DNA of 64,000 nt from a virus, in the IMG/VR virus record IMGVR_UViG_3300030102_007626, positions 1 to 64,000 of that record; one strand, written 5' to 3'. The first letter of the stretch is position 1; each line of letters opens with the position of its first letter. The notes under the pieces are model-generated. The model was not told the DNA's origin and did no database searches. It saw only the letters and a program-made list of their open reading frames with translations. Below, one piece after another: positions 17,061-49,141 of the stretch. The position numbers and the translations under genes are program-made.

Positions 17061-19151
17061 ATGGCAGAAACTATTGTATCACCTGGAGTATTAGCTATTG
17101 AAAATGATCAATCTCAAATAACCCAACTCCCAATAGAAGCAGGTGCAGCTATTATAGGACCAACAGTAAAAGGAAAAGTTGGAATACCCACAATATGTAC
17201 TACTTATAGTGACTATACAAGTAAATATGGTTCTACTTTTGAAAGTGGAAGCCAAACTTTTACTTATCTTACTTCTATTTCAGCTTATAACTATTTTCAA
17301 AATGGGGGAACTTCTTTATTAGTAACTCGAGTAACAAGTGGATCTTTTACATCTGCAACTTCTTCTCGTATTCCTACATCAACAGCAGATACCCAAGCTA
17401 CCGCAAGTATAAATTTAACTTTTATTTCTGCTAGTGTAGCAAGTGGAGGATCAGGATCTTTTGGTATAAACGGTATTACATTATCTTACACAGGAAATAA
17501 TGTTACAAACACATCTACCCAAATTAATATAAATACAGGGTCATTTAGTGATAGTACAGTTGCTGATTATGCATTTTCATCTTCCGCAACATTTACAGTA
17601 AGCAGTTCTGTAGCTCCATATAGTGCATCTTTACAAAATATTTCTTCATCTTTTACTAGTACTAATTTAGTATTAACCCATATAGGTCAAAATGGTATTG
17701 ATGGTAATAATTTATTTTTTACCTCGGGTAGTGTTAACTATAGTTTTGTAGGAGGTACTAATACTGAATTATTAGTATTAGAAACAATTGCTGAAGGTGA
17801 AATAATGAATAGTGATGGTACATTAAATGCTAATGGTACTTTAGTTAATGGTACTTCTGATAATATAAGGTGGCAAGTAACTAACCAAAATATAAATGAA
17901 GGTACTTTTGAAATAGTAATAAGAAGAGGTGATGATACAACTTTATCTCCTTCAAGATTAGAAACTTTTAGTAATCTTTCATTAGATCCATATTCTCCTA
18001 ATTATGTTGAAAAAATAATAGGAAATCAAAAAGAAGTAGTAAATAGTGATGCTGGAGAATTTTATGTAAAAATGCAAGGTGAATATCCTAATAATTCAAG
18101 ATTTGTAAGAGTTAAAAAAGTAAATTTCACAACTCCTGAATATTTTGATAATAACGGGGACCCTAAACCCCAATTTACAGGATCCTTACCTACCACTTCA
18201 AGTGGAGCTTTTGGATCAGCTATAGGAAGTAATATTTCTACAGATGAAGGTAAATACTATGAAAACATTTCAAACGATAATATTCAAGGACTTCAAGCTT
18301 CAGATTATACAAATTCAGTTTCATTATTAGCTAATAAAGAAGCATATAGATATAATTTACTTACTATTCCTGGGTTAACTTCTGATTTTTCAAATCATGT
18401 TTCTACTATTACAAATGTAATAAATACAGTACAAAATAGAGGAGATTCTATGGCTGTAATAGATTTAGTAAGATATGGATCAAATGTAACCACAGTAAAT
18501 TTACAAGCTAATACCTATGATACATCCTATGCTGCTACTTATTGGCCTTGGGTACAAACAATTGATCCTAATACTGCTAGACAAGTATGGGTGCCTGCTT
18601 CAACATTAATACCTGGAATTTATGCTTTTAATGATAGAATAGCTGCCCCATGGTTTGCACCAGCGGGACAAAATAGAGGTATAATGGGTACCGCTGTTAG
18701 AGCTGAAAGATATTTAACCCAAGGTAATAGAGATTCACTATATGAAAATAAAGTAAATGGTATAGTTACATTCCCTAATACTGGAGTTACAGTATTTGGA
18801 CAAAAAACACTCCAAAAGAAAAAAACAGCTTTAGATAGAGTAAATGTAAGACGATTATTAATTGAATTAAAAGGTTTTATTTCTCAAGTAGCAGATACTT
18901 TAGTATTTGAACAAAATAATGTTACAACAAGAAATAATTTTTTATCCCAAGTAAATCCTTACTTAAACTCTGTCCAAAATCAACAAGGTTTAACAGAATT
19001 TAAAGTTGTAATGGATGATTCAAATAATACCCCAACAACTATAGACAATAACCAATTAATTGGACAAATATATTTACAACCAGTTAGATCAGCAGAATTT
19101 ATTATATTAGACTTTAATGTATTACCAACAGGTGCAACATTTCCATCATAA
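17061..19151 (+). CDS. gp18: Contractile tail sheath protein, copy 1 (gp18-like)
   Basis: SPGV N-terminus; YAATYWPW, PWFAPAG, FGQKTLQ, LDRVNVRRLL, FEQN. Confidence 0.93.
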   Translation: MAETIVSPGVLAIENDQSQITQLPIEAGAAIIGPTVKGKVGIPTICTTYSDYTSKYGSTFESGSQTFTYLTSISAYNYFQNGGTSLLVTRVTSGSFTSATSSRIPTSTADTQATASINLTFISASVASGGSGSFGINGITLSYTGNNVTNTSTQININTGSFSDSTVADYAFSSSATFTVSSSVAPYSASLQNISSSFTSTNLVLTHIGQNGIDGNNLFFTSGSVNYSFVGGTNTELLVLETIAEGEIMNSDGTLNANGTLVNGTSDNIRWQVTNQNINEGTFEIVIRRGDDTTLSPSRLETFSNLSLDPYSPNYVEKIIGNQKEVVNSDAGEFYVKMQGEYPNNSRFVRVKKVNFTTPEYFDNNGDPKPQFTGSLPTTSSGAFGSAIGSNISTDEGKYYENISNDNIQGLQASDYTNSVSLLANKEAYRYNLLTIPGLTSDFSNHVSTITNVINTVQNRGDSMAVIDLVRYGSNVTTVNLQANTYDTSYAATYWPWVQTIDPNTARQVWVPASTLIPGIYAFNDRIAAPWFAPAGQNRGIMGTAVRAERYLTQGNRDSLYENKVNGIVTFPNTGVTVFGQKTLQKKKTALDRVNVRRLLIELKGFISQVADTLVFEQNNVTTRNNFLSQVNPYLNSVQNQQGLTEFKVVMDDSNNTPTTIDNNQLIGQIYLQPVRSAEFIILDFNVLPTGATFPS

Positions 19152-42679: not shown

Positions 42680-42707
42680 AAAAGGTGTACGTTTGTATAC
42701 CTTTTTT
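42680..42707 (+). terminator. Rho-independent terminator
   Basis: AAAAGGTGTAC-GTTT-GTATACCTTTT followed by T residues. Confidence 0.75.
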
Positions 42708-42727
42708 ATATTTATACCTGATAATTA

Positions 42728-43027
42728 ATGTTTTATTTTAAAAAGTTTTTTATGAAAATTTATAATTATATAAAAAATAGGATTATGGCTTTTAAAGACA
42801 TGTTTAAAGACAAAAATGATGTAAATGAAAAAAATGTTATAGGATTTTTATCATTTGCAGTGATGGTATTATTTGCTGTTGCTGACCTAATAACAGGATA
42901 TTTAGGTAAAGACTTAGTAGTTCAAGAATTTATTTATAATTCTTTTTTAGTAATTACTTTAGGATGTTTTGGTATAGCAGGAGTTGAAAAAATATTTTCT
43001 AAAAAAAATAACGAAGAAGAAGTATGA
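42728..43027 (+). CDS. Two-TM membrane protein, holin candidate (true start may be 42786)
   Basis: Two hydrophobic helices and a charged C-terminus; first gene of the operon ending in endolysin. Confidence 0.5.
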   Translation: MFYFKKFFMKIYNYIKNRIMAFKDMFKDKNDVNEKNVIGFLSFAVMVLFAVADLITGYLGKDLVVQEFIYNSFLVITLGCFGIAGVEKIFSKKNNEEEV

Positions 43028-45429
43028 AAAAGTTTTTATCATTATTATTGTGTTTAACTACATTTTTTAGTTTTTCACAAAACAATTGCAATTTTGAAAG
43101 TTCTAATGCATACCAACAATGTATTACCGGCCAGAATGGCATACCTGGAGGTCAAGCAATTATTATTTTTGAATGGTTTAATGCTCCTGGAAGTTGTGAA
43201 GTAGCTTCTGTTTCTTATTCAAATGCAGAAGGTGCTGGCCCATTTACATACCCAGTAGGACAGCCTCCTAATGTACCAAGTGGTAATTTTGGTGTGTATG
43301 CAGGACCGGGTGGAGGACAACCTGCACTTCCTACATGGTCTGTAGAGCATTATTTGGTATTAAACTACTCCAACGGAACACAATCTGATACTATAGCATA
43401 CACTCCATACCCATGTATACCTGGTTGTACAGACCCTAATTCAGAGTCATATAATCCATGGGCTAGTGTAAATAATGGATCTTGTGAAGGGGGAAATGGA
43501 AATGGAGATAATTGTGACCCTGGTGATTTTGAAATAACAGTTGAAATTACACTAGATAGTTACCCAGGAGAAACATCTTGGATATTAACATCATTATCTG
43601 ATGGTGGTTCTCCTATACAAATGCCACAAGGAGAATATAATTTTAGTGATATTGGACAAACATATAGTTATCCTGTTTGTATAGATGAACAAGGAGTTGA
43701 ACTTATAATAAATGATACTTATGGTGATGGATTAGCTGGATCAACAACAGGTGGAACTATTGATGGGAATGTTATTATATATGGTTGTAATGGTGAAATA
43801 CTTTGGGAATTACCTAACCCAAATTTTGGATATACAGGATACTCAGGAGCAGTTTTAGGAGTTCCTTGCAATAATATTGAACCTATACCAGGTTGTATGG
43901 ATCCTTTATATCAAGAATATAACCCTGAAGCAAATGTTGATGATGGAACTTGTGAAAATTTACATGTATATGGGTGTATTGATACATCAGCTTATAACTA
44001 TAATCCAGATGCTACTATAAACCAAATAGTAGAAACATGTAATTATACTTTATGGATAGGAGATGCCGCTGCTGATGGTTGGGGTAATTCATATATAGGA
44101 GTATACCAAGATGGGGAAACTTTAGGTACATATACAATGGGACCTGGTTTAAATGAACAAATTTTTCTTATCTCATTAAACACAGATAAACCAGTACAAG
44201 TTTATTACTTTGAAAATGCTAGTCCTCAACAACCACCTGAAGAAGTTGAATTTCAAACATGGCAAAATTCTTTTAAACTAACAAATTCAGATGGTGTAGT
44301 ATTAATGCATGAAGGATCTAATCCATTTGCTAATAATGGACAAGGTGCATTACAACCTTTTGAATTACCTACTTGGACAACTTATTCTGCATTACCTTAT
44401 TGTGGAGATTATTGTGAACCAAAAATATATGGCTGTATGGATACTCTTTCAGTTAACTATAACCCCTTAGCTAATACAGACGATGGTTCATGTATCCCAA
44501 TTATATATGGTTGTACTAATGAATTAGCATTTAATTACAATCCAGACGCGACAGTAGATGATGGTAGTTGTATACCTACAGTGTATGGGTGTATGGACCC
44601 ATTATCTTGGAATTATAATTCAGAAGCCAATATAGATGATGGTTCATGTATTTATTTTGGTTGTATGGATTCGTTAGCATTAAATTATGATCCTAATGCT
44701 AATGTTGATAATGGTACGTGCATATATCCAATTTATGGTTGTACAGACCCCGAAGCATTTAATTATGATCCTGAAGCTAATGTTGATGATGGTTCTTGTA
44801 TACCTGTAATATATGGTTGCATGGACCCAACTGCTTTTAATTATAATCCACTAGCTAATACTGATAATGGATCATGTGAACCAATTGTTTTTGGTTGTAC
44901 TGATTCAACAGCATTAAATTATAACCCACTAGCTAACACAGATAATGGTACTTGTATATTACCTTTAGCAGGGTGTACAGACCCTAATGCCTATAATTAT
45001 GACCCAACAGCAAATGTACCCGATTCATCAGCTTGTTTATATGATGCTGGTTGTATTGGGGGACCAGGTAATCCTTATTGGTTAAATGATGGTTGTTACG
45101 CTTGGGTAATAGATGTTGATATTTATTGTTGTGAAGTAGAATGGGACGCTTCATGCCAATCCATGTATGATTATTGTGAAGCTGGATGGCCTGTAGGAAT
45201 AGATGAAATGGATATTAATGGAATTATCGTTTATCCAAACCCAACAGATAATACTTTAAATATTGAAACTCATTTATCATTTAAATATGAATTAAGAGAT
45301 GCAATGGGTAAACTATTATTAACAGGAGAAAATAAACGTTTAGAATTAGGTAAATATAATGATGGAGTTTATTTTTTAACCTTAATTCATAACGAGAAAA
45401 AATTTAATAAAAGAATTATAAAACAATGA
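43024..45429 (+). CDS. Secreted Cys-rich repeat protein with T9SS (Por) type A C-terminal sorting domain
   Basis: Sec signal MKKFLSLLLCLTTFFSFS|Q; GC(T/M)D..A.NY.P.AN.DDGSC repeats; C-terminal IVYPNP...G.YFL...KRIIKQ. Confidence 0.88.
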   Translation: MKKFLSLLLCLTTFFSFSQNNCNFESSNAYQQCITGQNGIPGGQAIIIFEWFNAPGSCEVASVSYSNAEGAGPFTYPVGQPPNVPSGNFGVYAGPGGGQPALPTWSVEHYLVLNYSNGTQSDTIAYTPYPCIPGCTDPNSESYNPWASVNNGSCEGGNGNGDNCDPGDFEITVEITLDSYPGETSWILTSLSDGGSPIQMPQGEYNFSDIGQTYSYPVCIDEQGVELIINDTYGDGLAGSTTGGTIDGNVIIYGCNGEILWELPNPNFGYTGYSGAVLGVPCNNIEPIPGCMDPLYQEYNPEANVDDGTCENLHVYGCIDTSAYNYNPDATINQIVETCNYTLWIGDAAADGWGNSYIGVYQDGETLGTYTMGPGLNEQIFLISLNTDKPVQVYYFENASPQQPPEEVEFQTWQNSFKLTNSDGVVLMHEGSNPFANNGQGALQPFELPTWTTYSALPYCGDYCEPKIYGCMDTLSVNYNPLANTDDGSCIPIIYGCTNELAFNYNPDATVDDGSCIPTVYGCMDPLSWNYNSEANIDDGSCIYFGCMDSLALNYDPNANVDNGTCIYPIYGCTDPEAFNYDPEANVDDGSCIPVIYGCMDPTAFNYNPLANTDNGSCEPIVFGCTDSTALNYNPLANTDNGTCILPLAGCTDPNAYNYDPTANVPDSSACLYDAGCIGGPGNPYWLNDGCYAWVIDVDIYCCEVEWDASCQSMYDYCEAGWPVGIDEMDINGIIVYPNPTDNTLNIETHLSFKYELRDAMGKLLLTGENKRLELGKYNDGVYFLTLIHNEKKFNKRIIKQ
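44431..45035 (+). repeat. Eight tandem ~78-nt Cys-rich coding repeats (three more copies upstream)
   Basis: GCxDxxAxNYxPxANxDxGSC units. Confidence 0.85.
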
Positions 45430-46487
45430 AAAAACTTTTAATTTTATTTCTATTATTACCCTTAATTACATTTAGTCAAACAGAGTCTAAATTTAAAAAA
45501 ACAGTTAAAAAAGTTCTTAAATATTCTACCTTTTATGGTGCTGTTACTGGTGGAAATTCAATATCTGATGTTAATGTTTATTCTGTAACAAATGGTTTAG
45601 AAACTTCAACTGTTAAAACTCCTTTTGATTATTCAATTGCATTAGGGGTTAGAAAAATAGCTAGGTTTGGTTATGAAAATAGAGCTAATATATTTTTTGA
45701 TGGAACAGAAAAAACATATGGTGATGCAGCTACAATTGGTAGAATAAATGGGTTTGAATATTTATTTGAAGCAGATTGGACAAGACAACAAGGTACATCA
45801 TTTTTAAATCAAGACTATTTTTTAAGATATGTAGCAAAAAACTGGATTGCTAAAGCAGAATACTTAGAAGATGGATTTGCTGATATTAGATATTTTGAAT
45901 CTTCAGAAAGATATAGACAAAAAATAGGAAATAAATTATCTTTTAATATAGGAGCAGTACAACGTATAGCTGAACCTTACGGTTATAACCCATTAGACCA
46001 ATGGTTATTATCAAATGGTAGTTTGCATTATACTGATTTAGCATTACAAGAGGGGTATTCTATTGAGTTTGATGGAAATGGTGGTGTAAATTATTTTAAC
46101 CCTAGTGGAGAATTAGTAGCAGAAAATACCCAAGTATGGGAAGCAGTAGTCATACCAGAAGTATTAGCTGAGTATACAGAAAAAGAAAGAAAAGCATTAA
46201 AATATCAATGGAATCATTCATTAGTAATAGGTTTTGATTTTTATCACTATACTAAAGATTTTTGGGTACATTCGTGGGGTAACGTGATGCCTTTACATTT
46301 AGAAACTAAAAGTGACTATTCATACCATAAATTTAATGGTGGACAGTGGGTAGACTATTCAGGTGGTTTAATATTTGGATATAAAATAACTAAAAATTTA
46401 GGAGTATTTTTAGAAGGTAAATATAATAAATACTGGAATAGAAAATGGCACGATTTTAGTGTAGGAATAAATTATATAATTTTATAA
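45426..46487 (+). CDS. Putative outer-membrane beta-barrel protein
   Basis: Signal peptide ending FS|Q; aromatic-rich alternating strands; C-terminal FSVGINY beta-signal-like strand. Confidence 0.65.
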   Translation: MKKLLILFLLLPLITFSQTESKFKKTVKKVLKYSTFYGAVTGGNSISDVNVYSVTNGLETSTVKTPFDYSIALGVRKIARFGYENRANIFFDGTEKTYGDAATIGRINGFEYLFEADWTRQQGTSFLNQDYFLRYVAKNWIAKAEYLEDGFADIRYFESSERYRQKIGNKLSFNIGAVQRIAEPYGYNPLDQWLLSNGSLHYTDLALQEGYSIEFDGNGGVNYFNPSGELVAENTQVWEAVVIPEVLAEYTEKERKALKYQWNHSLVIGFDFYHYTKDFWVHSWGNVMPLHLETKSDYSYHKFNGGQWVDYSGGLIFGYKITKNLGVFLEGKYNKYWNRKWHDFSVGINYIIL

Positions 46488-46488
46488 A

Positions 46489-46773
46489 ATGGCAAAAGAA
46501 CTAAACGAAGACACAGGTTTTAGAGTAAGTATAAAAACTTTAATAGGTATTGCTTTTGCAATAGCAACTGTAGTAGGTATGTGGTTTGCTTTACAAGCTG
46601 ACATACAAGAAGCAAAAGAATTACCAAAACCCCCCGAACCAGAAGTAACTAGAATGGAATTTGACATGAAAGATCAAATAGTTAGACAAACTATTATGAC
46701 TACTCAAGAAGATGTTAAAGAATTAAAAACTGATATGGATCGCATAGAAGAAAAAATTGATAATCTAAAGTAA
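46489..46773 (+). CDS. Single-TM protein with C-terminal coiled coil
   Basis: TM LIGIAFAIATVVGMWFAL, Pro linker, heptad tail. Confidence 0.7.
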   Translation: MAKELNEDTGFRVSIKTLIGIAFAIATVVGMWFALQADIQEAKELPKPPEPEVTRMEFDMKDQIVRQTIMTTQEDVKELKTDMDRIEEKIDNLK

Positions 46774-46779
46774 ATTATT

Positions 46780-47109
46780 ATGAAAAAGATGTTTTTACTA
46801 CTGTTTAGTATATTTTTTACAATAAGTTGTTATACTCAAATTACTATTAAACATTTTAATGCTTCATGGAATGCTACAAATAATGTTACATGGCTCAAAA
46901 GTTTAACAGATTGTAATGTAAAATATTATGACATAACTAAAAATCCTGAATTACAAAAAAAATATAAAGTAGTAGTTGTTCCAACTATTGTAGTATTTCA
47001 AGATGGAGAAGAAATAGAAAGATATCAAGCAGACATTTCTTTTAAAATGCCCGCTACAAAAAGTGAAGTACAAGAAGCTATTGATGAAGCTATAATGGGT
47101 GGATTTTAA
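46780..47109 (+). CDS. Exported thioredoxin-fold protein lacking CxxC
   Basis: Signal peptide; FNASWN replaces F.A.WCxxC; KYKVVVVPTIVVFQDGEEIERY. Confidence 0.7.
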   Translation: MKKMFLLLFSIFFTISCYTQITIKHFNASWNATNNVTWLKSLTDCNVKYYDITKNPELQKKYKVVVVPTIVVFQDGEEIERYQADISFKMPATKSEVQEAIDEAIMGGF

Positions 47110-47125
47110 ATTATAAACAAAAAAT

Positions 47126-48037
47126 ATGTTACTAAAAAAAGGATCAAAAGGTAAAGAAGTAAAAGAACTTCAAGAAGCCCTAGAAATAGGAGCAGATGGT
47201 ATATTCGGACCTGGAACAGAATTATCAGTTAAAAAATTTCAAAAAGAAAATGGATTAATAGCTGATGGGGTAGTAGGACCTGCTACATGGGAAGCTATAG
47301 GAATAGATACAGATACTACAGCTGAAGAAACAGAATACACAACTAAAGATGGTTTAATAATTGAACGTCAATATTTAGATAAAAATGAATATGTAAGAGA
47401 TTATGGTAAAATAGAACCATTAGGTTTTTTCCTCCACCACACAGCAGGTTGGGACAATCCATTTGCATGTGTAAATAGTTGGAATAAAGATAAAAGAGGT
47501 AGAGTTGCTACTCAATATGTTATAGGAGGAACTAATGTAAAAGGTAAAGAAGCTAAATATGATGGTGTTGTAGTTGAATGTTTCCCAAATAATTATTTAG
47601 GATGGCATTTAGGTAAAGTAGGAAATTTTAAAATATCAAAACTATCAGGTGGTGTAGAACTTAATAACTTTGGCTATTTAACTAAAAAAGGAGATAAGTA
47701 TTATACTTATGTTAATACAGAAGTTAAACCTGAATTTGTTTGTGATTTAGGATATAAATTTAGAGGTCATCAATATTGGCATGCTTATTCAGATAAACAA
47801 ATTGAATCCCTTCGATTACTAATTTTACATTTAAAAGATATTTATCCTAAAATGGATTTAGAAAATGGACTTCCAAAACTATTAAAAGAAGGAGTTCATC
47901 CAAAAGATGCATTTGAATTTAATTTAGATGCTTATAATGCAAAACAATTTGGATTATGGACACACACAAATGTTCGTAAAGACAAATTTGATTGCTTTCC
48001 TCAACATGAATTAGTTGAGATGCTTAAAGGTTTGTAA
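47126..48037 (+). CDS. Endolysin: peptidoglycan-binding domain plus N-acetylmuramoyl-L-alanine amidase
   Basis: LKKGSKG.EVKELQ..DGIFG..T...FQ...DGVVG..TW; LHHTAG, WHLG, HTNVR.DK.DC. Confidence 0.88.
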   Translation: MLLKKGSKGKEVKELQEALEIGADGIFGPGTELSVKKFQKENGLIADGVVGPATWEAIGIDTDTTAEETEYTTKDGLIIERQYLDKNEYVRDYGKIEPLGFFLHHTAGWDNPFACVNSWNKDKRGRVATQYVIGGTNVKGKEAKYDGVVVECFPNNYLGWHLGKVGNFKISKLSGGVELNNFGYLTKKGDKYYTYVNTEVKPEFVCDLGYKFRGHQYWHAYSDKQIESLRLLILHLKDIYPKMDLENGLPKLLKEGVHPKDAFEFNLDAYNAKQFGLWTHTNVRKDKFDCFPQHELVEMLKGL

Positions 48038-48060: not shown

Positions 48061-48087
48061 GGAGCCCTAAAAGGGGCTCCTTATTTT
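48061..48087 (+). terminator. Terminator hairpin overlapping a host-type promoter spacer
   Basis: GGAGCCCT-AAAA-GGGGCTCC then TTATTTT; also TTGG(48059)-N19-TATTTT. Confidence 0.7.
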
Positions 48088-48094
48088 ACATGCT

Positions 48095-49141
48095 ATGAAA
48101 CGATTTTTTCCAATATTAATTTTAATAGCAGCCCTAAGTTTAGCAACTGTAGCTGCTTACTATAGTGTTTTTGGTATTAGTAAATTATTTTCTTCTCAAG
48201 CTAGTGCTGTAATATTAATGGCTGCTATACTTGAAGCTTCTAAACTTATTACTGCTTCTTATTTAGAAAGATTTTGGGAAACTATTCATTGGATAAGAAA
48301 AACTTATTTAATTTCCGCTTTAATAGCATTAATGGCTATAACTTCACTTGGGATTTATGGGTTTTTAGTTTCTGCTTATCAAGAAACGGCATATAAAATG
48401 CAAGCAGTAGATAAACAAGTTGAAGTAAAAGTTAAAAAACGTAATAGATATCAACAACAAATAAAAGATATATCTAAAGAACAAAAAGATATAAATACAC
48501 AAATAATTGAATTAAGTGAAAGCTTAGGTAATAATGTAATACAATATACTAATAGCGAAGGACAACTTATAACTACCCAATCATCAGCAACACGTAAAAT
48601 CATCCAACAACAATTAGATGCACAAACATCTAGAAGAGATAGTTTAACTACTAAACAAGATATCTTAAATGATAGTATAACAAAATTTGATTTAGATATA
48701 CTAAACCTAGAAATTAATTCAGATGTTGCAGCAGAAATTGGACCTTTAAAATATGTTGCTAATATTACAGGAAAAGATACTGATCAAGTAGTAAACTGGT
48801 TTATACTAGTTTTTATTTTTGTTTTTGATCCTTTAGCTGTTATGTTACTTATTTCTGCAAATAAAATATTCTATGAAAATTCTAAAAAAAACATTTATGG
48901 AGAAAAAAAAACTAAAGTTTTAAAGGAAGAAAAAGTAGAGGTAAAACAGGAGGAGAGTAAAGCCGAGCGGGTTAAAGCCCCAACTCCACCCTCTACTGCT
49001 TCTTCTGAAAAGCAACAACTTCAAAATGAAATAGCTAAAATCCAAAGATCTGGAGCTTCAAGTAGAAAAACAGGACAAGCTATAGAAAACTTACAATCTA
49101 GAATTAAAAAAATAGATGATGATAACACTAAAACTTATTAA
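48095..49141 (+). CDS. Multi-TM membrane protein with long coiled coil
   Basis: Three N-terminal TMs (AAYYSV.G, LE..K, TSLGIYGFL), AEIGPLKY, IFVFDPLAV. Confidence 0.75.
   Translation: MKRFFPILILIAALSLATVAAYYSVFGISKLFSSQASAVILMAAILEASKLITASYLERFWETIHWIRKTYLISALIALMAITSLGIYGFLVSAYQETAYKMQAVDKQVEVKVKKRNRYQQQIKDISKEQKDINTQIIELSESLGNNVIQYTNSEGQLITTQSSATRKIIQQQLDAQTSRRDSLTTKQDILNDSITKFDLDILNLEINSDVAAEIGPLKYVANITGKDTDQVVNWFILVFIFVFDPLAVMLLISANKIFYENSKKNIYGEKKTKVLKEEKVEVKQEESKAERVKAPTPPSTASSEKQQLQNEIAKIQRSGASSRKTGQAIENLQSRIKKIDDDNTKTY

What the first reader, a model, noticed from the sequence alone, without database searches (positions are those of the whole stretch)
42709..48037. Late phage operon encoding a T9SS cargo, an outer-membrane barrel and two envelope partners between a holin candidate and the endolysin
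Seen: after a terminator and a late motif (42709), six tightly packed genes run to a terminator at 48061. They encode a 2-TM protein, an 801-aa Sec-signal protein with 11 Cys-rich repeats and a clear type A T9SS CTD (YPNP...G.Y...K.IIK), a 353-aa beta-barrel-like protein, a 1-TM coiled-coil protein, an exported CxxC-less thioredoxin fold, and an amidase endolysin. Known: type A CTDs route proteins through the Bacteroidota T9SS for release or surface anchoring; I know of no characterised phage system that uses this route. Inference: the phage remodels the infected cell surface late in infection, for example for superinfection exclusion, lysis timing, adhesion or outer-membrane disruption. The barrel could anchor the cargo and the Trx-like protein could assist folding of the Cys repeats.
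Basis: partly seen in the sequence, partly recalled or inferred. Interest (0 to 1): 0.88.

Follow-up and report, generated by a model that had tools for sequence, protein, structure and literature searches.

The report
Phage envelope module with T9SS cargo
A 155-kb marine Bacteroidota phage carries, inside its lysis operon, a four-gene set found only in phages (a cysteine-rich protein tagged for the host's type IX secretion system, an outer-membrane barrel, an inner-membrane helical protein and an inactive periplasmic thioredoxin); it is common in marine viral DNA and its function is unknown.

Summary
Six tightly packed + strand genes (42728-48037) lie between two terminator-like hairpins, behind a recurrent promoter-like motif that also precedes the tail sheath gene. 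The 801-aa protein has a signal peptide, 11 Cys repeats and a type A T9SS CTD above both curated cut-offs. The 353-aa protein models as a 12-stranded outer-membrane barrel. The Trx fold is real and lacks CxxC in every family member.

New here:
- Cargo, barrel, TM helix and Trx form a self-contained module in 80+ viral contigs. The gene order is always a circular permutation of one cycle.
- The barrel family has 3,861 clusters, all unnamed. It is absent from GenBank phages and from cellular genomes, apart from 7 MAG contigs, most with non-Bacteroidota labels.
- The module sits beside lysis genes of three endolysin and two holin types (19% of flanking slots versus 1.6% elsewhere).
- The cargo's N-terminal tip is hypervariable and its base is conserved.

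Corrections:
- The Trx protein is not a lipoprotein.
- The barrel is not PorP/SprF.
- The phage has a separate spanin-like pair elsewhere.
- Phage T9SS cargo has a published sequence-level precedent (Bellas 2020).

The most likely reading is a late-made surface-display apparatus coupled to lysis. Its function is untested. This scan has flagged the same module in at least 11 other genomes.

The parts
42680..42705 (+). Terminator-like hairpin that closes the upstream unit
   Evidence: 11-pair stem followed by a T run; sequence read
42706..42717 (+). Promoter-like motif B (TTATATTTATAC), 22 nt upstream of the first gene; a putative late promoter
   Evidence: About 12 intergenic copies in the genome, 17-32 nt upstream of start codons, including the tail sheath gene at 17061
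42728..43027 (+). TM2_99: a 99-aa protein with 2 TM segments and a charged C-terminus; holin or antiholin candidate
   Evidence: TM segments at 37-55 and 68-86. 52% identical to immuto gp79, which sits directly upstream of that phage's endolysin and holin. Present in 17 related loci, always beside the module or an endolysin. No holin family hit
43024..45429 (+). Cargo801: signal peptide (SFS|Q), hypervariable N-terminal region, two beta-sandwich domains, 11 Cys repeats, a conserved Cys-rich base domain and a type A T9SS CTD
45229..45426 (+). Type A T9SS C-terminal sorting domain of the cargo (residues 736-801)
   Evidence: TIGR04183 35.2 bits (cut-off 23); PF18962 33.9 bits (cut-off 27); 42 of 47 homologues also hit PF18962
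45426..46487 (+). Barrel353: exported 12-stranded outer-membrane beta-barrel with an inserted helical subdomain of about 80 aa (residues 183-260) and a conserved long turn (residues 78-108)
   Evidence: AF2 model at pLDDT 72; Z 10-11 to 12-stranded OMPs; nearest Atlas clusters 100% viral; 3,861 homologous clusters, none named
46489..46773 (+). TMcc94: single-pass inner-membrane protein with a 58-aa periplasmic part (short helix, Pro-rich linker, helix of about 40 aa)
   Evidence: One TM segment at 17-35. Family mean column identity 73%, with invariant residues in the tail, TM segment and helix. A homologue is still next to the barrel in the divergent L099
46780..47109 (+). Trx109: exported thioredoxin fold without catalytic cysteines
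   Evidence: Profile hits thioredoxins at 1e-8. CxxC is replaced by (W/F)NxxN in all 38 members. The cis-Pro motif VVVPT and the C-terminal Phe are invariant. The lipobox-like Cys is not conserved
47126..48037 (+). Endolysin: PG_binding_1 plus Amidase_2, with no signal peptide or TM segment
   Evidence: PF01471 52.3 bits; PF01510 27.2 bits; PHROG endolysin families down to 1e-15
48061..48080 (+). Terminator-like hairpin that closes the operon
   Evidence: 8-pair stem with 6 GC pairs, followed by a T run

Best explanation
This is a phage-specific, late-expressed envelope module that puts one protein in each layer of the Bacteroidota cell envelope and is co-regulated with lysis. Proposed mechanism: from a late-type promoter the phage makes four exported proteins. 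The cargo crosses the inner membrane through Sec and its 38 cysteines form disulfides in the periplasm. Its type A CTD then takes it through the host T9SS to the cell surface, where it stands with its conserved Cys-rich base near the membrane and its hypervariable N-terminal tip pointing outward. The phage's own 12-stranded barrel is inserted in the outer membrane. The inactive thioredoxin sits in the periplasm. The 94-aa helical protein is anchored in the inner membrane. Together these three act as the cargo's dedicated partners, for holding or assembling it and for linking it to the inner membrane. The most likely purpose is to change what the surface of the infected cell, and later its debris, binds. 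That could mean masking receptors against superinfection and against loss of progeny, or adhesion. Shown here: gene content, export signals, CTD, barrel fold, dead Trx, phage-only distribution, four-gene linkage, proximity to lysis genes, and a variable tip with a conserved base. Inferred: the export route actually used, surface retention, contacts among the four proteins, expression timing, and the biological purpose.
For: CTD above curated cut-offs in the window protein and in 42 of 47 homologues. Signal peptides obey the Bacteroidetes Q-rule in cargo, barrel and Trx: 44/47, 44/44 and 26/38 members (rule from PMC5837995 and PMC10367356). The barrel is a 12-stranded OMP fold. The Trx is redox-dead throughout the family. 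Only these four clusters are near-universal in 87 loci (cargo 81, barrel 87, TMcc 77, Trx 77), and all observed orders are circular permutations of one cycle. The cargo stop and barrel start overlap by 4 nt. The barrel is absent from 50,697 GenBank phage records and found in only 7 MAG contigs (most with non-Bacteroidota labels) among 185,579 species genomes; Atlas neighbours are 100% viral. Per-region conservation of the cargo is 0.17 for the N-terminal tip and 0.66 for the base domain. In near-identical phage L003 (flanks 90-92% DNA identity) the N-terminal 400 residues fall to 52-72% with a 148-aa insertion. Some homologues carry CBM48 or CBM53 modules, and the sandwich domains weakly resemble C2/PLAT/CBM binding folds. 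The same Cys repeats occur in cyanophage virion proteins. The promoter-like motif is shared with the tail sheath gene. Flavobacterium phage resistance maps to gliding and T9SS genes, so T9SS-dependent surface molecules are plausible receptors to mask (PMC9804748; bioRxiv 10.1101/2020.10.02.323337).
Against: No experiment or expression data exists for any member. The barrel has no detectable relation to any T9SS component. Type A cargo normally needs no private barrel, so why three extra proteins are required is unexplained. The tight neighbourhood with holins and endolysins fits a lysis role at least as naturally as a display role. TMcc94 is far more conserved than one would expect for a mere anchor. 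The cargo fold matches are weak (Z at most 6.5), so a binding function is only suggested. Many Flavobacteriia type A substrates are released rather than retained on the surface.
Confidence: 0.42

Rival explanations
1. Non-canonical outer-membrane disruption device, functionally equivalent to a spanin. The inner-membrane helical protein, the periplasmic Trx and the OM barrel bridge the envelope. After the holin and endolysin have acted, they destabilise or fuse the outer membrane. The cargo assists from outside or is a passenger.
For: A recognised lysis gene lies within two genes of the module in 40 of 86 loci: 19% of flanking slots versus 1.6% elsewhere, odds ratio about 15, involving three endolysin and two holin families. 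In the window the module is inside the operon, between a holin-like gene and the amidase. TMcc94 has the class II topology of an i-spanin (definition from PMC6139136). No lipoprotein lies near the lysis genes and the genome has no u-spanin candidate. 91 of 677 phages in the spanin survey had no spanin, so other routes must exist. The TMcc-barrel pair persists at the edge of the family, next to small holin-like ORFs.
Against: The same phage has a separate overlapping pair with spanin-like topology at 149560-150277, homologous to immuto gp84/gp85, which lie inside immuto's lysis cluster. That pair coexists with the module in the two closest large relatives. The periplasmic part of TMcc94 is only 58 aa. 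There is no OM lipoprotein. Conservation is much higher than is usual for spanins. A cargo of 700-1500 aa with a hypervariable tip has no obvious role in membrane fusion. The loci are related, so the enrichment statistic overstates independence.
Confidence: 0.22
2. Two separate units that happen to be neighbours. The cargo is a freely released T9SS-secreted binding protein, an accessory or flexible gene like those of 'Cryophage'. Barrel, TMcc and Trx form an independent envelope trio with its own role in lysis or its regulation.
For: The cargo changes position relative to the trio, upstream of the barrel or downstream of Trx. It evolves much faster than the trio. The divergent barrels in L099 and L100 have no visible CTD cargo next to them, though those contigs are short. 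Published phage T9SS cargo genes stand without such a trio.
Against: The cargo is present in 81 of 87 loci and is always adjacent to one end of the trio. The orders are circular permutations, not random placements. Cargo and barrel overlap by 4 nt in the window. The most conserved part of the cargo is the base next to the CTD, as expected if it contacts a conserved partner.
Confidence: 0.17
3. Lysis-timing or superinfection sensor. TMcc94 acts like an antiholin (analogous to T4 RI), and the periplasmic Trx and the barrel relay an outside signal picked up by the surface cargo.
For: Small bitopic protein with a periplasmic domain inside a lysis operon. Strong conservation suggests a specific partner. 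The adjacent TM2_99 is a holin or antiholin candidate.
Against: No sequence or profile similarity to any known antiholin. The idea is purely an analogy, and nothing in the data indicates signalling.
Confidence: 0.07
4. Sporadic host-derived insertion (a moron) with no conserved role in phages.
For: The module is absent from the nearest cultured relative, phage immuto.
Against: 111 viral contigs carry the barrel, with conserved four-gene linkage. There are 3,861 protein clusters. The module is essentially absent from cellular genomes, and no host homologue of the barrel or TMcc was found.
Confidence: 0.02

Closest known systems
Phage-encoded T9SS type A CTD cargo genes of 'Cryophage' (Bellas et al. 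2020, Nat Commun, PMC7468147)
   Same: A phage of a Bacteroidota host encodes proteins with a type A T9SS sorting domain. Those genes are among the most variable in the phage. Both were found from sequence only.
   Different: The Cryophage cargoes are enzymes or PA14 proteins in flexible islands, with no reported partner genes. Here the cargo is a Cys-repeat protein with no recognisable catalytic domain, and it is locked to a barrel, a TM helix and a dead Trx across more than 80 contigs.
SprB/SprF-type pairing in Flavobacterium: a T9SS cargo with a cognate PorP/SprF-family barrel encoded just downstream
   Same: A large surface protein gene is followed immediately by a barrel gene of about 350 aa, and both proteins are exported.
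   Different: Those cargoes carry type B CTDs, while this one is type A. The phage barrel has no PF11751 hit and gives 1.2% hhalign probability against six real PorP/SprF proteins. PorP/SprF systems have no TM-helix or Trx partners.
Two-component spanins (lambda Rz/Rz1; Kongari et al. 2018, PMC6139136)
   Same: Located in or beside the lysis cassette. One class II inner-membrane protein with a helical periplasmic domain plus one outer-membrane protein.
   Different: The outer-membrane partner is a beta-barrel, not a lipoprotein. There is an extra periplasmic Trx and a T9SS cargo. The periplasmic domain is short and conservation is unusually high. A separate spanin-like pair exists elsewhere in the genome.
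Phage-encoded outer-membrane or surface proteins expressed from prophages or late operons (lambda Lom and Bor, T5 Llp; my own knowledge)
   Same: A phage installs its own protein in the host outer membrane. Known roles include exclusion and protecting progeny from debris.
   Different: Those are single small proteins (8-stranded barrels or lipoproteins). None uses T9SS or comes as a four-part set spanning the envelope.
Autotransporter translocator domains, NanC/KdgM and Tsx (12-stranded OMPs)
   Same: Best structural matches to the barrel model (Z 10.5-11.3, 162-203 residues aligned).
   Different: No sequence relationship. The matches are tied with one another, so they indicate a generic 12-stranded architecture only. 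No fused passenger form was found.

Membership tests
T9SS type A CTD substrate (TIGR04183 / PF18962) | C-terminal sorting domain matching the family HMM above its curated cut-off | tested here: met
   35.2 bits versus 23 and 33.9 bits versus 27, over residues 736-801; 42 of 47 homologues also match
T9SS type A CTD substrate (TIGR04183 / PF18962) | N-terminal Sec signal peptide for entry to the periplasm | tested here: met
   A hydrophobic h-region followed by xQ (Q-rule) in 44 of 47 family members. No SignalP was available, so this was judged from the sequence
T9SS type A CTD substrate (TIGR04183 / PF18962) | Secretion depends on host T9SS, with CTD cleavage | not testable with these tools
   Needs expression in wild type versus gld/spr/por mutants
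PorP/SprF family (PF11751) | Match to the family HMM or profile | tested here: not met
   No Pfam or NCBIfam hit at E<0.1. hhalign of the barrel family against six bona fide PorP/SprF proteins gives 1.2% probability
PorP/SprF family (PF11751) | Encoded immediately downstream of its cognate T9SS cargo | tested here: met
   The barrel follows the cargo directly in most loci, with a 4-nt overlap in the window. This is an analogy of arrangement only
Two-component spanin | i-spanin: class II inner-membrane protein with a periplasmic helical domain | tested here: met
   TMcc94 has one TM segment at 17-35 and a 58-aa C-terminal helical part. N-in orientation is inferred
Two-component spanin | o-spanin: outer-membrane lipoprotein with a lipobox | tested here: not met
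   The barrel has no lipobox. The Cys in the Trx109 signal peptide is not conserved in the family. The only other lipobox ORF in the genome is at 107974
Two-component spanin | Located in or next to the holin/endolysin cassette | tested here: met
   40 of 86 loci have a lysis gene within two genes of the module, and in the window the module is inside the operon
Two-component spanin | The two subunits form a periplasm-spanning complex and are required for the outer-membrane step of lysis | not testable with these tools
   Needs pull-down or cross-linking and phage knock-outs
Thioredoxin family (PF00085) | Thioredoxin fold recognisable by profile | tested here: met
   PF00085 24.7 bits (cut-off 23.5). 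The family profile hits solved thioredoxins at 1e-8, and the cis-Pro is kept
Thioredoxin family (PF00085) | CxxC redox-active site | tested here: not met
   The position reads (W/F)NxxN in all 38 members aligned
Outer-membrane beta-barrel protein (generic OMP) | Signal peptide plus a closed antiparallel barrel with an even number of strands | tested here: met
   Signal peptide with Q-rule in 44 of 44 members. 12 strands in the AF2 model, Z 10-11 to 12-stranded OMPs. The model confidence is moderate (pLDDT 72)
Amidase_2 endolysin | Catalytic amidase domain and cell-wall binding domain HMMs | tested here: met
   PF01510 27.2 bits (cut-off 26), PF01471 52.3 bits, PHROG endolysin families
Holin (for TM2_99) | Small membrane protein with at least one TMD and a charged C-terminus, adjacent to the endolysin | tested here: met
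   Two TM segments and the C-terminus EKIFSKKNNEEEV. Its homologue immuto gp79 abuts that phage's endolysin
Holin (for TM2_99) | Match to a known holin family | tested here: not met
   No holin hit in Pfam, NCBIfam or PHROGs. It coexists with recognised holins in immuto and in L007-L013

The most novel reading that the evidence does not exclude
The four proteins form a previously unrecognised kind of phage machine: a trans-envelope complex (inner-membrane helix, periplasmic dead thioredoxin, outer-membrane barrel) that holds a T9SS-delivered fibre with a swappable tip on the surface of the infected cell and is functionally tied to lysis. It would either be a new way of opening the Bacteroidota outer membrane or a programmable surface mask that protects progeny and excludes rival phages. 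Either role would be common among marine Flavobacteriia phages.
Probability: 0.25. Interest if true: 0.9.

Novelty: new variant of a known kind. Interest (0 to 1): 0.72.

Why it matters
Flavobacteriia are major degraders of algal organic matter in the sea, and their phages shape carbon turnover. This module is one of the more abundant unnamed gene sets in those phages (3,861 barrel clusters), yet no member has been studied and no cultured GenBank phage was found to carry it. It would be the first case in which a phage brings partner proteins of its own for a protein it sends through the host's type IX secretion system. If it acts in lysis, it bears on the open question of how phages without canonical spanins breach the outer membrane. 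If it acts at the surface, it would be a new form of superinfection exclusion or receptor masking. The stable Cys-knot fibre with a swappable tip and the phage-specific barrel could also be useful parts for surface display in Bacteroidota.

Tried and rejected
- The complex prediction of barrel (19-353), TMcc (36-94) and Trx (21-109) with Trx as partner returned no verdict (run scores 0.02, 0.34 and 0.01 against a mark of 0.32). It says nothing for or against binding.
- Searches for fused forms of Trx or barrel with longer proteins found none. The tool itself calls this weak evidence.
- PorP/SprF kinship of the barrel was rejected.
- Trx109 as an o-spanin lipoprotein was rejected because the Cys is not conserved.
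- The cargo as a virion protein of this phage was considered because the Cys repeats occur in cyanophage virion proteins. In this genome the repeats occur only in the cargo, and a Sec signal plus a CTD argue against incorporation into virions.
- The PDB profile searches for the barrel and TMcc found nothing.
- Fold searches of the cargo sandwiches gave only weak, non-diagnostic matches (Z at most 6.5).
- The Atlas feature search of cargo residues 155-470 gave only unnamed viral clusters.
- My first regex scan for the repeats was mis-spaced and was replaced by tblastn.
- One script printed stale HMM results and was redone correctly.
- The sigma-70 promoter scan was no better than shuffled sequence (46 sites found versus 52 expected), so it was not used.

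Full report
**1. What is there**

The window is the first 64 kb of a single 155,669-bp contig in which 148 of 152 ORFs of at least 100 aa lie on the + strand. It encodes a tail sheath and a large terminase. Its only DNA-level relative among cultured phages is Flavobacterium phage immuto, a 160-kb myovirus. So this is phage DNA, not a prophage remnant.

Their spacings are -4, -4, 1, 6 and 16 nt, and they lie between terminator-like hairpins at 42680-42705 and 48061-48080.

The motif at 42706 (TTATATTTATA) is not an isolated match. About a dozen intergenic copies lie 17-32 nt upstream of start codons, one of them before the tail sheath gene. A different motif (TTCGTATATTATA...TAATTAAAAA) precedes 16 small ORFs at 93-110 kb. 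Reading the first motif as late and the second as early is reasonable but remains an inference.

**2. The proteins**

- **Cargo801.** It has a signal peptide cleaved before Gln, 11 Cys repeats and 38 cysteines in the mature chain. Its type A T9SS CTD scores above both curated cut-offs.
- **Cargo domains.** Residues 158-468 fold with confidence (pLDDT 83) into two beta-sandwiches joined by two Cys-repeat units. These match C2/PLAT domains and a calcium-dependent CBM only weakly (Z at most 6.5). Four homologues carry CBM48 and one carries CBM53.
- **Barrel353.** It has no family hit in any library. It models as a 12-stranded membrane barrel (pLDDT 72), with an inserted helical subdomain of about 80 aa and a long, highly conserved turn at residues 78-108. 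Z is 10-11 against NanC/KdgM, Tsx and autotransporter barrels.
- **TMcc94.** It has one TM segment and a 58-aa helical tail.
- **Trx109.** It is a true thioredoxin fold by profile (1e-8), but the CxxC position reads (W/F)NxxN in all 38 members. The cis-Pro and the C-terminal Phe are invariant. The lipobox-like Cys of the window protein is not conserved, so it is a soluble periplasmic protein.
- **Amidase.** It has the expected domains and no export signal.
- **TM2_99.** It has two TM segments and a charged tail. It is 52% identical to immuto gp79, which lies directly before that phage's endolysin and holin.

**3. Distribution**

The barrel finds 111 relatives in IMG/VR (80 loci fetched, 57-99% identity). 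It finds 3,861 clusters at 90% identity in the large protein collection, all unnamed and mostly from marine metagenomes, and 412 representatives at 50% identity.

It has no match in 50,697 GenBank phage records. In 185,579 species genomes it occurs on only 7 MAG contigs. Most carry non-Bacteroidota labels such as Nitrosopelagicus or Rickettsiales, and these are best read as mis-binned phage DNA; one is a Sphingobacteriales MAG. The nearest Atlas structure clusters are 100% viral.

**4. Linkage**

All ORFs of 87 loci were clustered. Only four clusters are near-universal: cargo in 81 loci, barrel in 87, TMcc in 77 and Trx in 77. The next most common cluster is in 33.

The observed orders are cargo-barrel-TMcc-Trx, barrel-TMcc-Trx-cargo and TMcc-Trx-cargo-barrel. 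All are circular permutations of one cycle, sometimes with small mobile-looking ORFs between the genes.

Of 47 full-length cargo homologues, 42 hit the CTD model on their own and 44 have a Q-rule signal peptide. The module occurs on at least two phage backbones: large myoviruses like this one, and smaller contigs with a different large-terminase family. A TMcc homologue still sits next to a divergent barrel in L099.

**5. Neighbourhood**

The amidase is adjacent only in close relatives. The recurrent neighbours in other lineages are nevertheless lysis genes: a holin (phrog_3427, 5e-33), an M15 peptidase endolysin (phrog_894, 5.5e-37), an endolysin-like 200-aa protein (phrog_33083) and a Phage_holin_4_1 holin.

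A recognised lysis gene lies within two genes of the module in 40 of 86 loci. That is 19% of flanking slots against 1.6% of other positions, an odds ratio of about 15. The loci are related, so the p-value overstates independence. The involvement of five unrelated lysis families shows that the association has been kept through gene replacement.

**6. Is it the spanin?**

By the published definition (PMC6139136), TMcc94 fits an i-spanin topologically, but there is no outer-membrane lipoprotein partner.

More important, the genome has a separate overlapping pair at 149560-150277. One member is 120 aa with a TM segment and a coiled coil. The other is 143 aa with a signal peptide, a coiled coil and a C-terminal TM segment. 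The pair is homologous to immuto gp84/gp85, which sit inside immuto's lysis cluster. It coexists with the module in the two closest large relatives. No library recognises the pair, so its role is also inferred. Its existence lowers the odds that the module is this phage's spanin.

**7. Is the barrel a T9SS part?**

The arrangement of a cargo gene followed at once by a barrel gene of about 350 aa recalls SprB/SprF in Flavobacterium (my own knowledge). However, the barrel has no PF11751 hit, and a profile-profile comparison with six real PorP/SprF proteins from a Bacteroidota MAG gives 1.2% probability. It resembles that system in arrangement but is not a member of the family.

**8. Cargo evolution**

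Per-region conservation across 47 homologues is 0.17 for residues 20-130, about 0.5 for the sandwich domains and 0.66 for the Cys-rich base next to the CTD.

In L003 the flanking DNA is 90-92% identical to the window, and the barrel and TMcc are 96-97% identical. The cargo's first 400 residues nevertheless fall to 52-72% identity, with about 148 extra residues after the signal peptide, while its C-terminal half stays at 82-92%.

T9SS substrates are handled through their C-terminus, so the variable end would be the tip farthest from the cell. A variable tip on a conserved base is the pattern of receptor-binding proteins. It also matches the flexible-island behaviour reported for the only published phage T9SS cargoes (PMC7468147).

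**9. Reading**

The best-supported explanation (0.42) is a late-made display apparatus. The host Sec system, host outer-membrane protein insertion machinery and T9SS would install a phage fibre on the surface of the infected cell, with three phage-specific partners, one in each envelope layer, and with expression tied to lysis. Receptor masking or adhesion is the likely purpose, because Flavobacterium phage resistance maps to gliding and T9SS genes.

The rivals are:
- a non-canonical outer-membrane disruption device (0.22);
- two independent neighbouring units (0.17);
- a lysis-timing sensor (0.07);
- a host-derived moron (0.02).

None of the functional steps has been tested.

**10. Novelty and prior notes**

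Phage T9SS cargo as such has one sequence-level precedent. I found no paper describing the four-gene module, the phage-specific barrel family or the conserved dead thioredoxin.

This scan has flagged the same module in at least 11 other genomes, and three follow-up agents reached similar readings. Those are AI notes and not independent evidence. I reached the linkage, lysis-neighbourhood and Bellas 2020 points from my own calls before reading them.

Noticed in passing
L091:7560-8277 (= genome 149560-150277, outside the window): An overlapping gene pair with spanin-like topology. One protein is 120 aa with a TM segment and a coiled coil. The other is 143 aa with a signal peptide (SFS|Q), a coiled coil and a C-terminal TM segment. 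The pair lies just upstream of the large terminase and is homologous to immuto gp84/gp85, which lie in that phage's lysis cluster. No lipobox is present, so if this is a spanin it is an unusual one.
   Followed up: partly
window 48095-49141: A 348-aa protein with four TM segments and a coiled-coil loop of about 145 aa between TM3 and TM4, encoded directly after the endolysin terminator. It is homologous to immuto gp86 and recurs beside lysis genes in L002, L003, L020 and L039. Its function is unknown.
   Followed up: partly
genome 93256-110471 (outside the window): Sixteen near-identical promoter-like elements (TTCGTATATTATA..TATAATTAAAAA), each 22-36 nt upstream of a small ORF of 60-180 aa. 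This looks like an early-gene array with one promoter per gene.
   Followed up: no
window 5572, 6279, 17029, 21802, 41805, 42706, 61840: Copies of the second promoter-like motif (TATATTTATAA), 17-32 nt upstream of genes that include phoH, the tail sheath gene and the first gene of the operon studied here. It is a candidate late promoter of this phage group.
   Followed up: partly
genome 107974-108528 (outside the window; its 3' end is at L089:1-529): The only clear lipoprotein candidate in the genome (184 aa, signal ending LVSC). It is not near the lysis genes, and a late-type motif follows it directly.
   Followed up: no
L043:3105-7610 and L033:2-2590: Large relatives of the cargo (1501 and at least 862 aa) with neither signal peptide nor CTD, encoded beside the module. 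The same Cys repeats occur in a cyanophage S-CAM3 'virion structural protein'. The repeat therefore looks like a shared extracellular building block of marine phage proteins, used both in virions and in secreted cargo.
   Followed up: partly
L033, L043, L067, L085 (between TMcc and Trx) and many flanks: A family of ORFs of about 130 aa (68 copies in 33 loci, often two or three in tandem) inserts between module genes without breaking them. It has no Pfam hit and may be a mobile or duplicating element.
   Followed up: no
L082, L083, L085-L088: Module-bearing contigs sit in MAGs labelled Nitrosopelagicus, Parvibaculum, Rickettsiales and Maricaulis, one of them a 120-kb contig. These are almost certainly phage contigs binned into the wrong genomes.
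   Followed up: no
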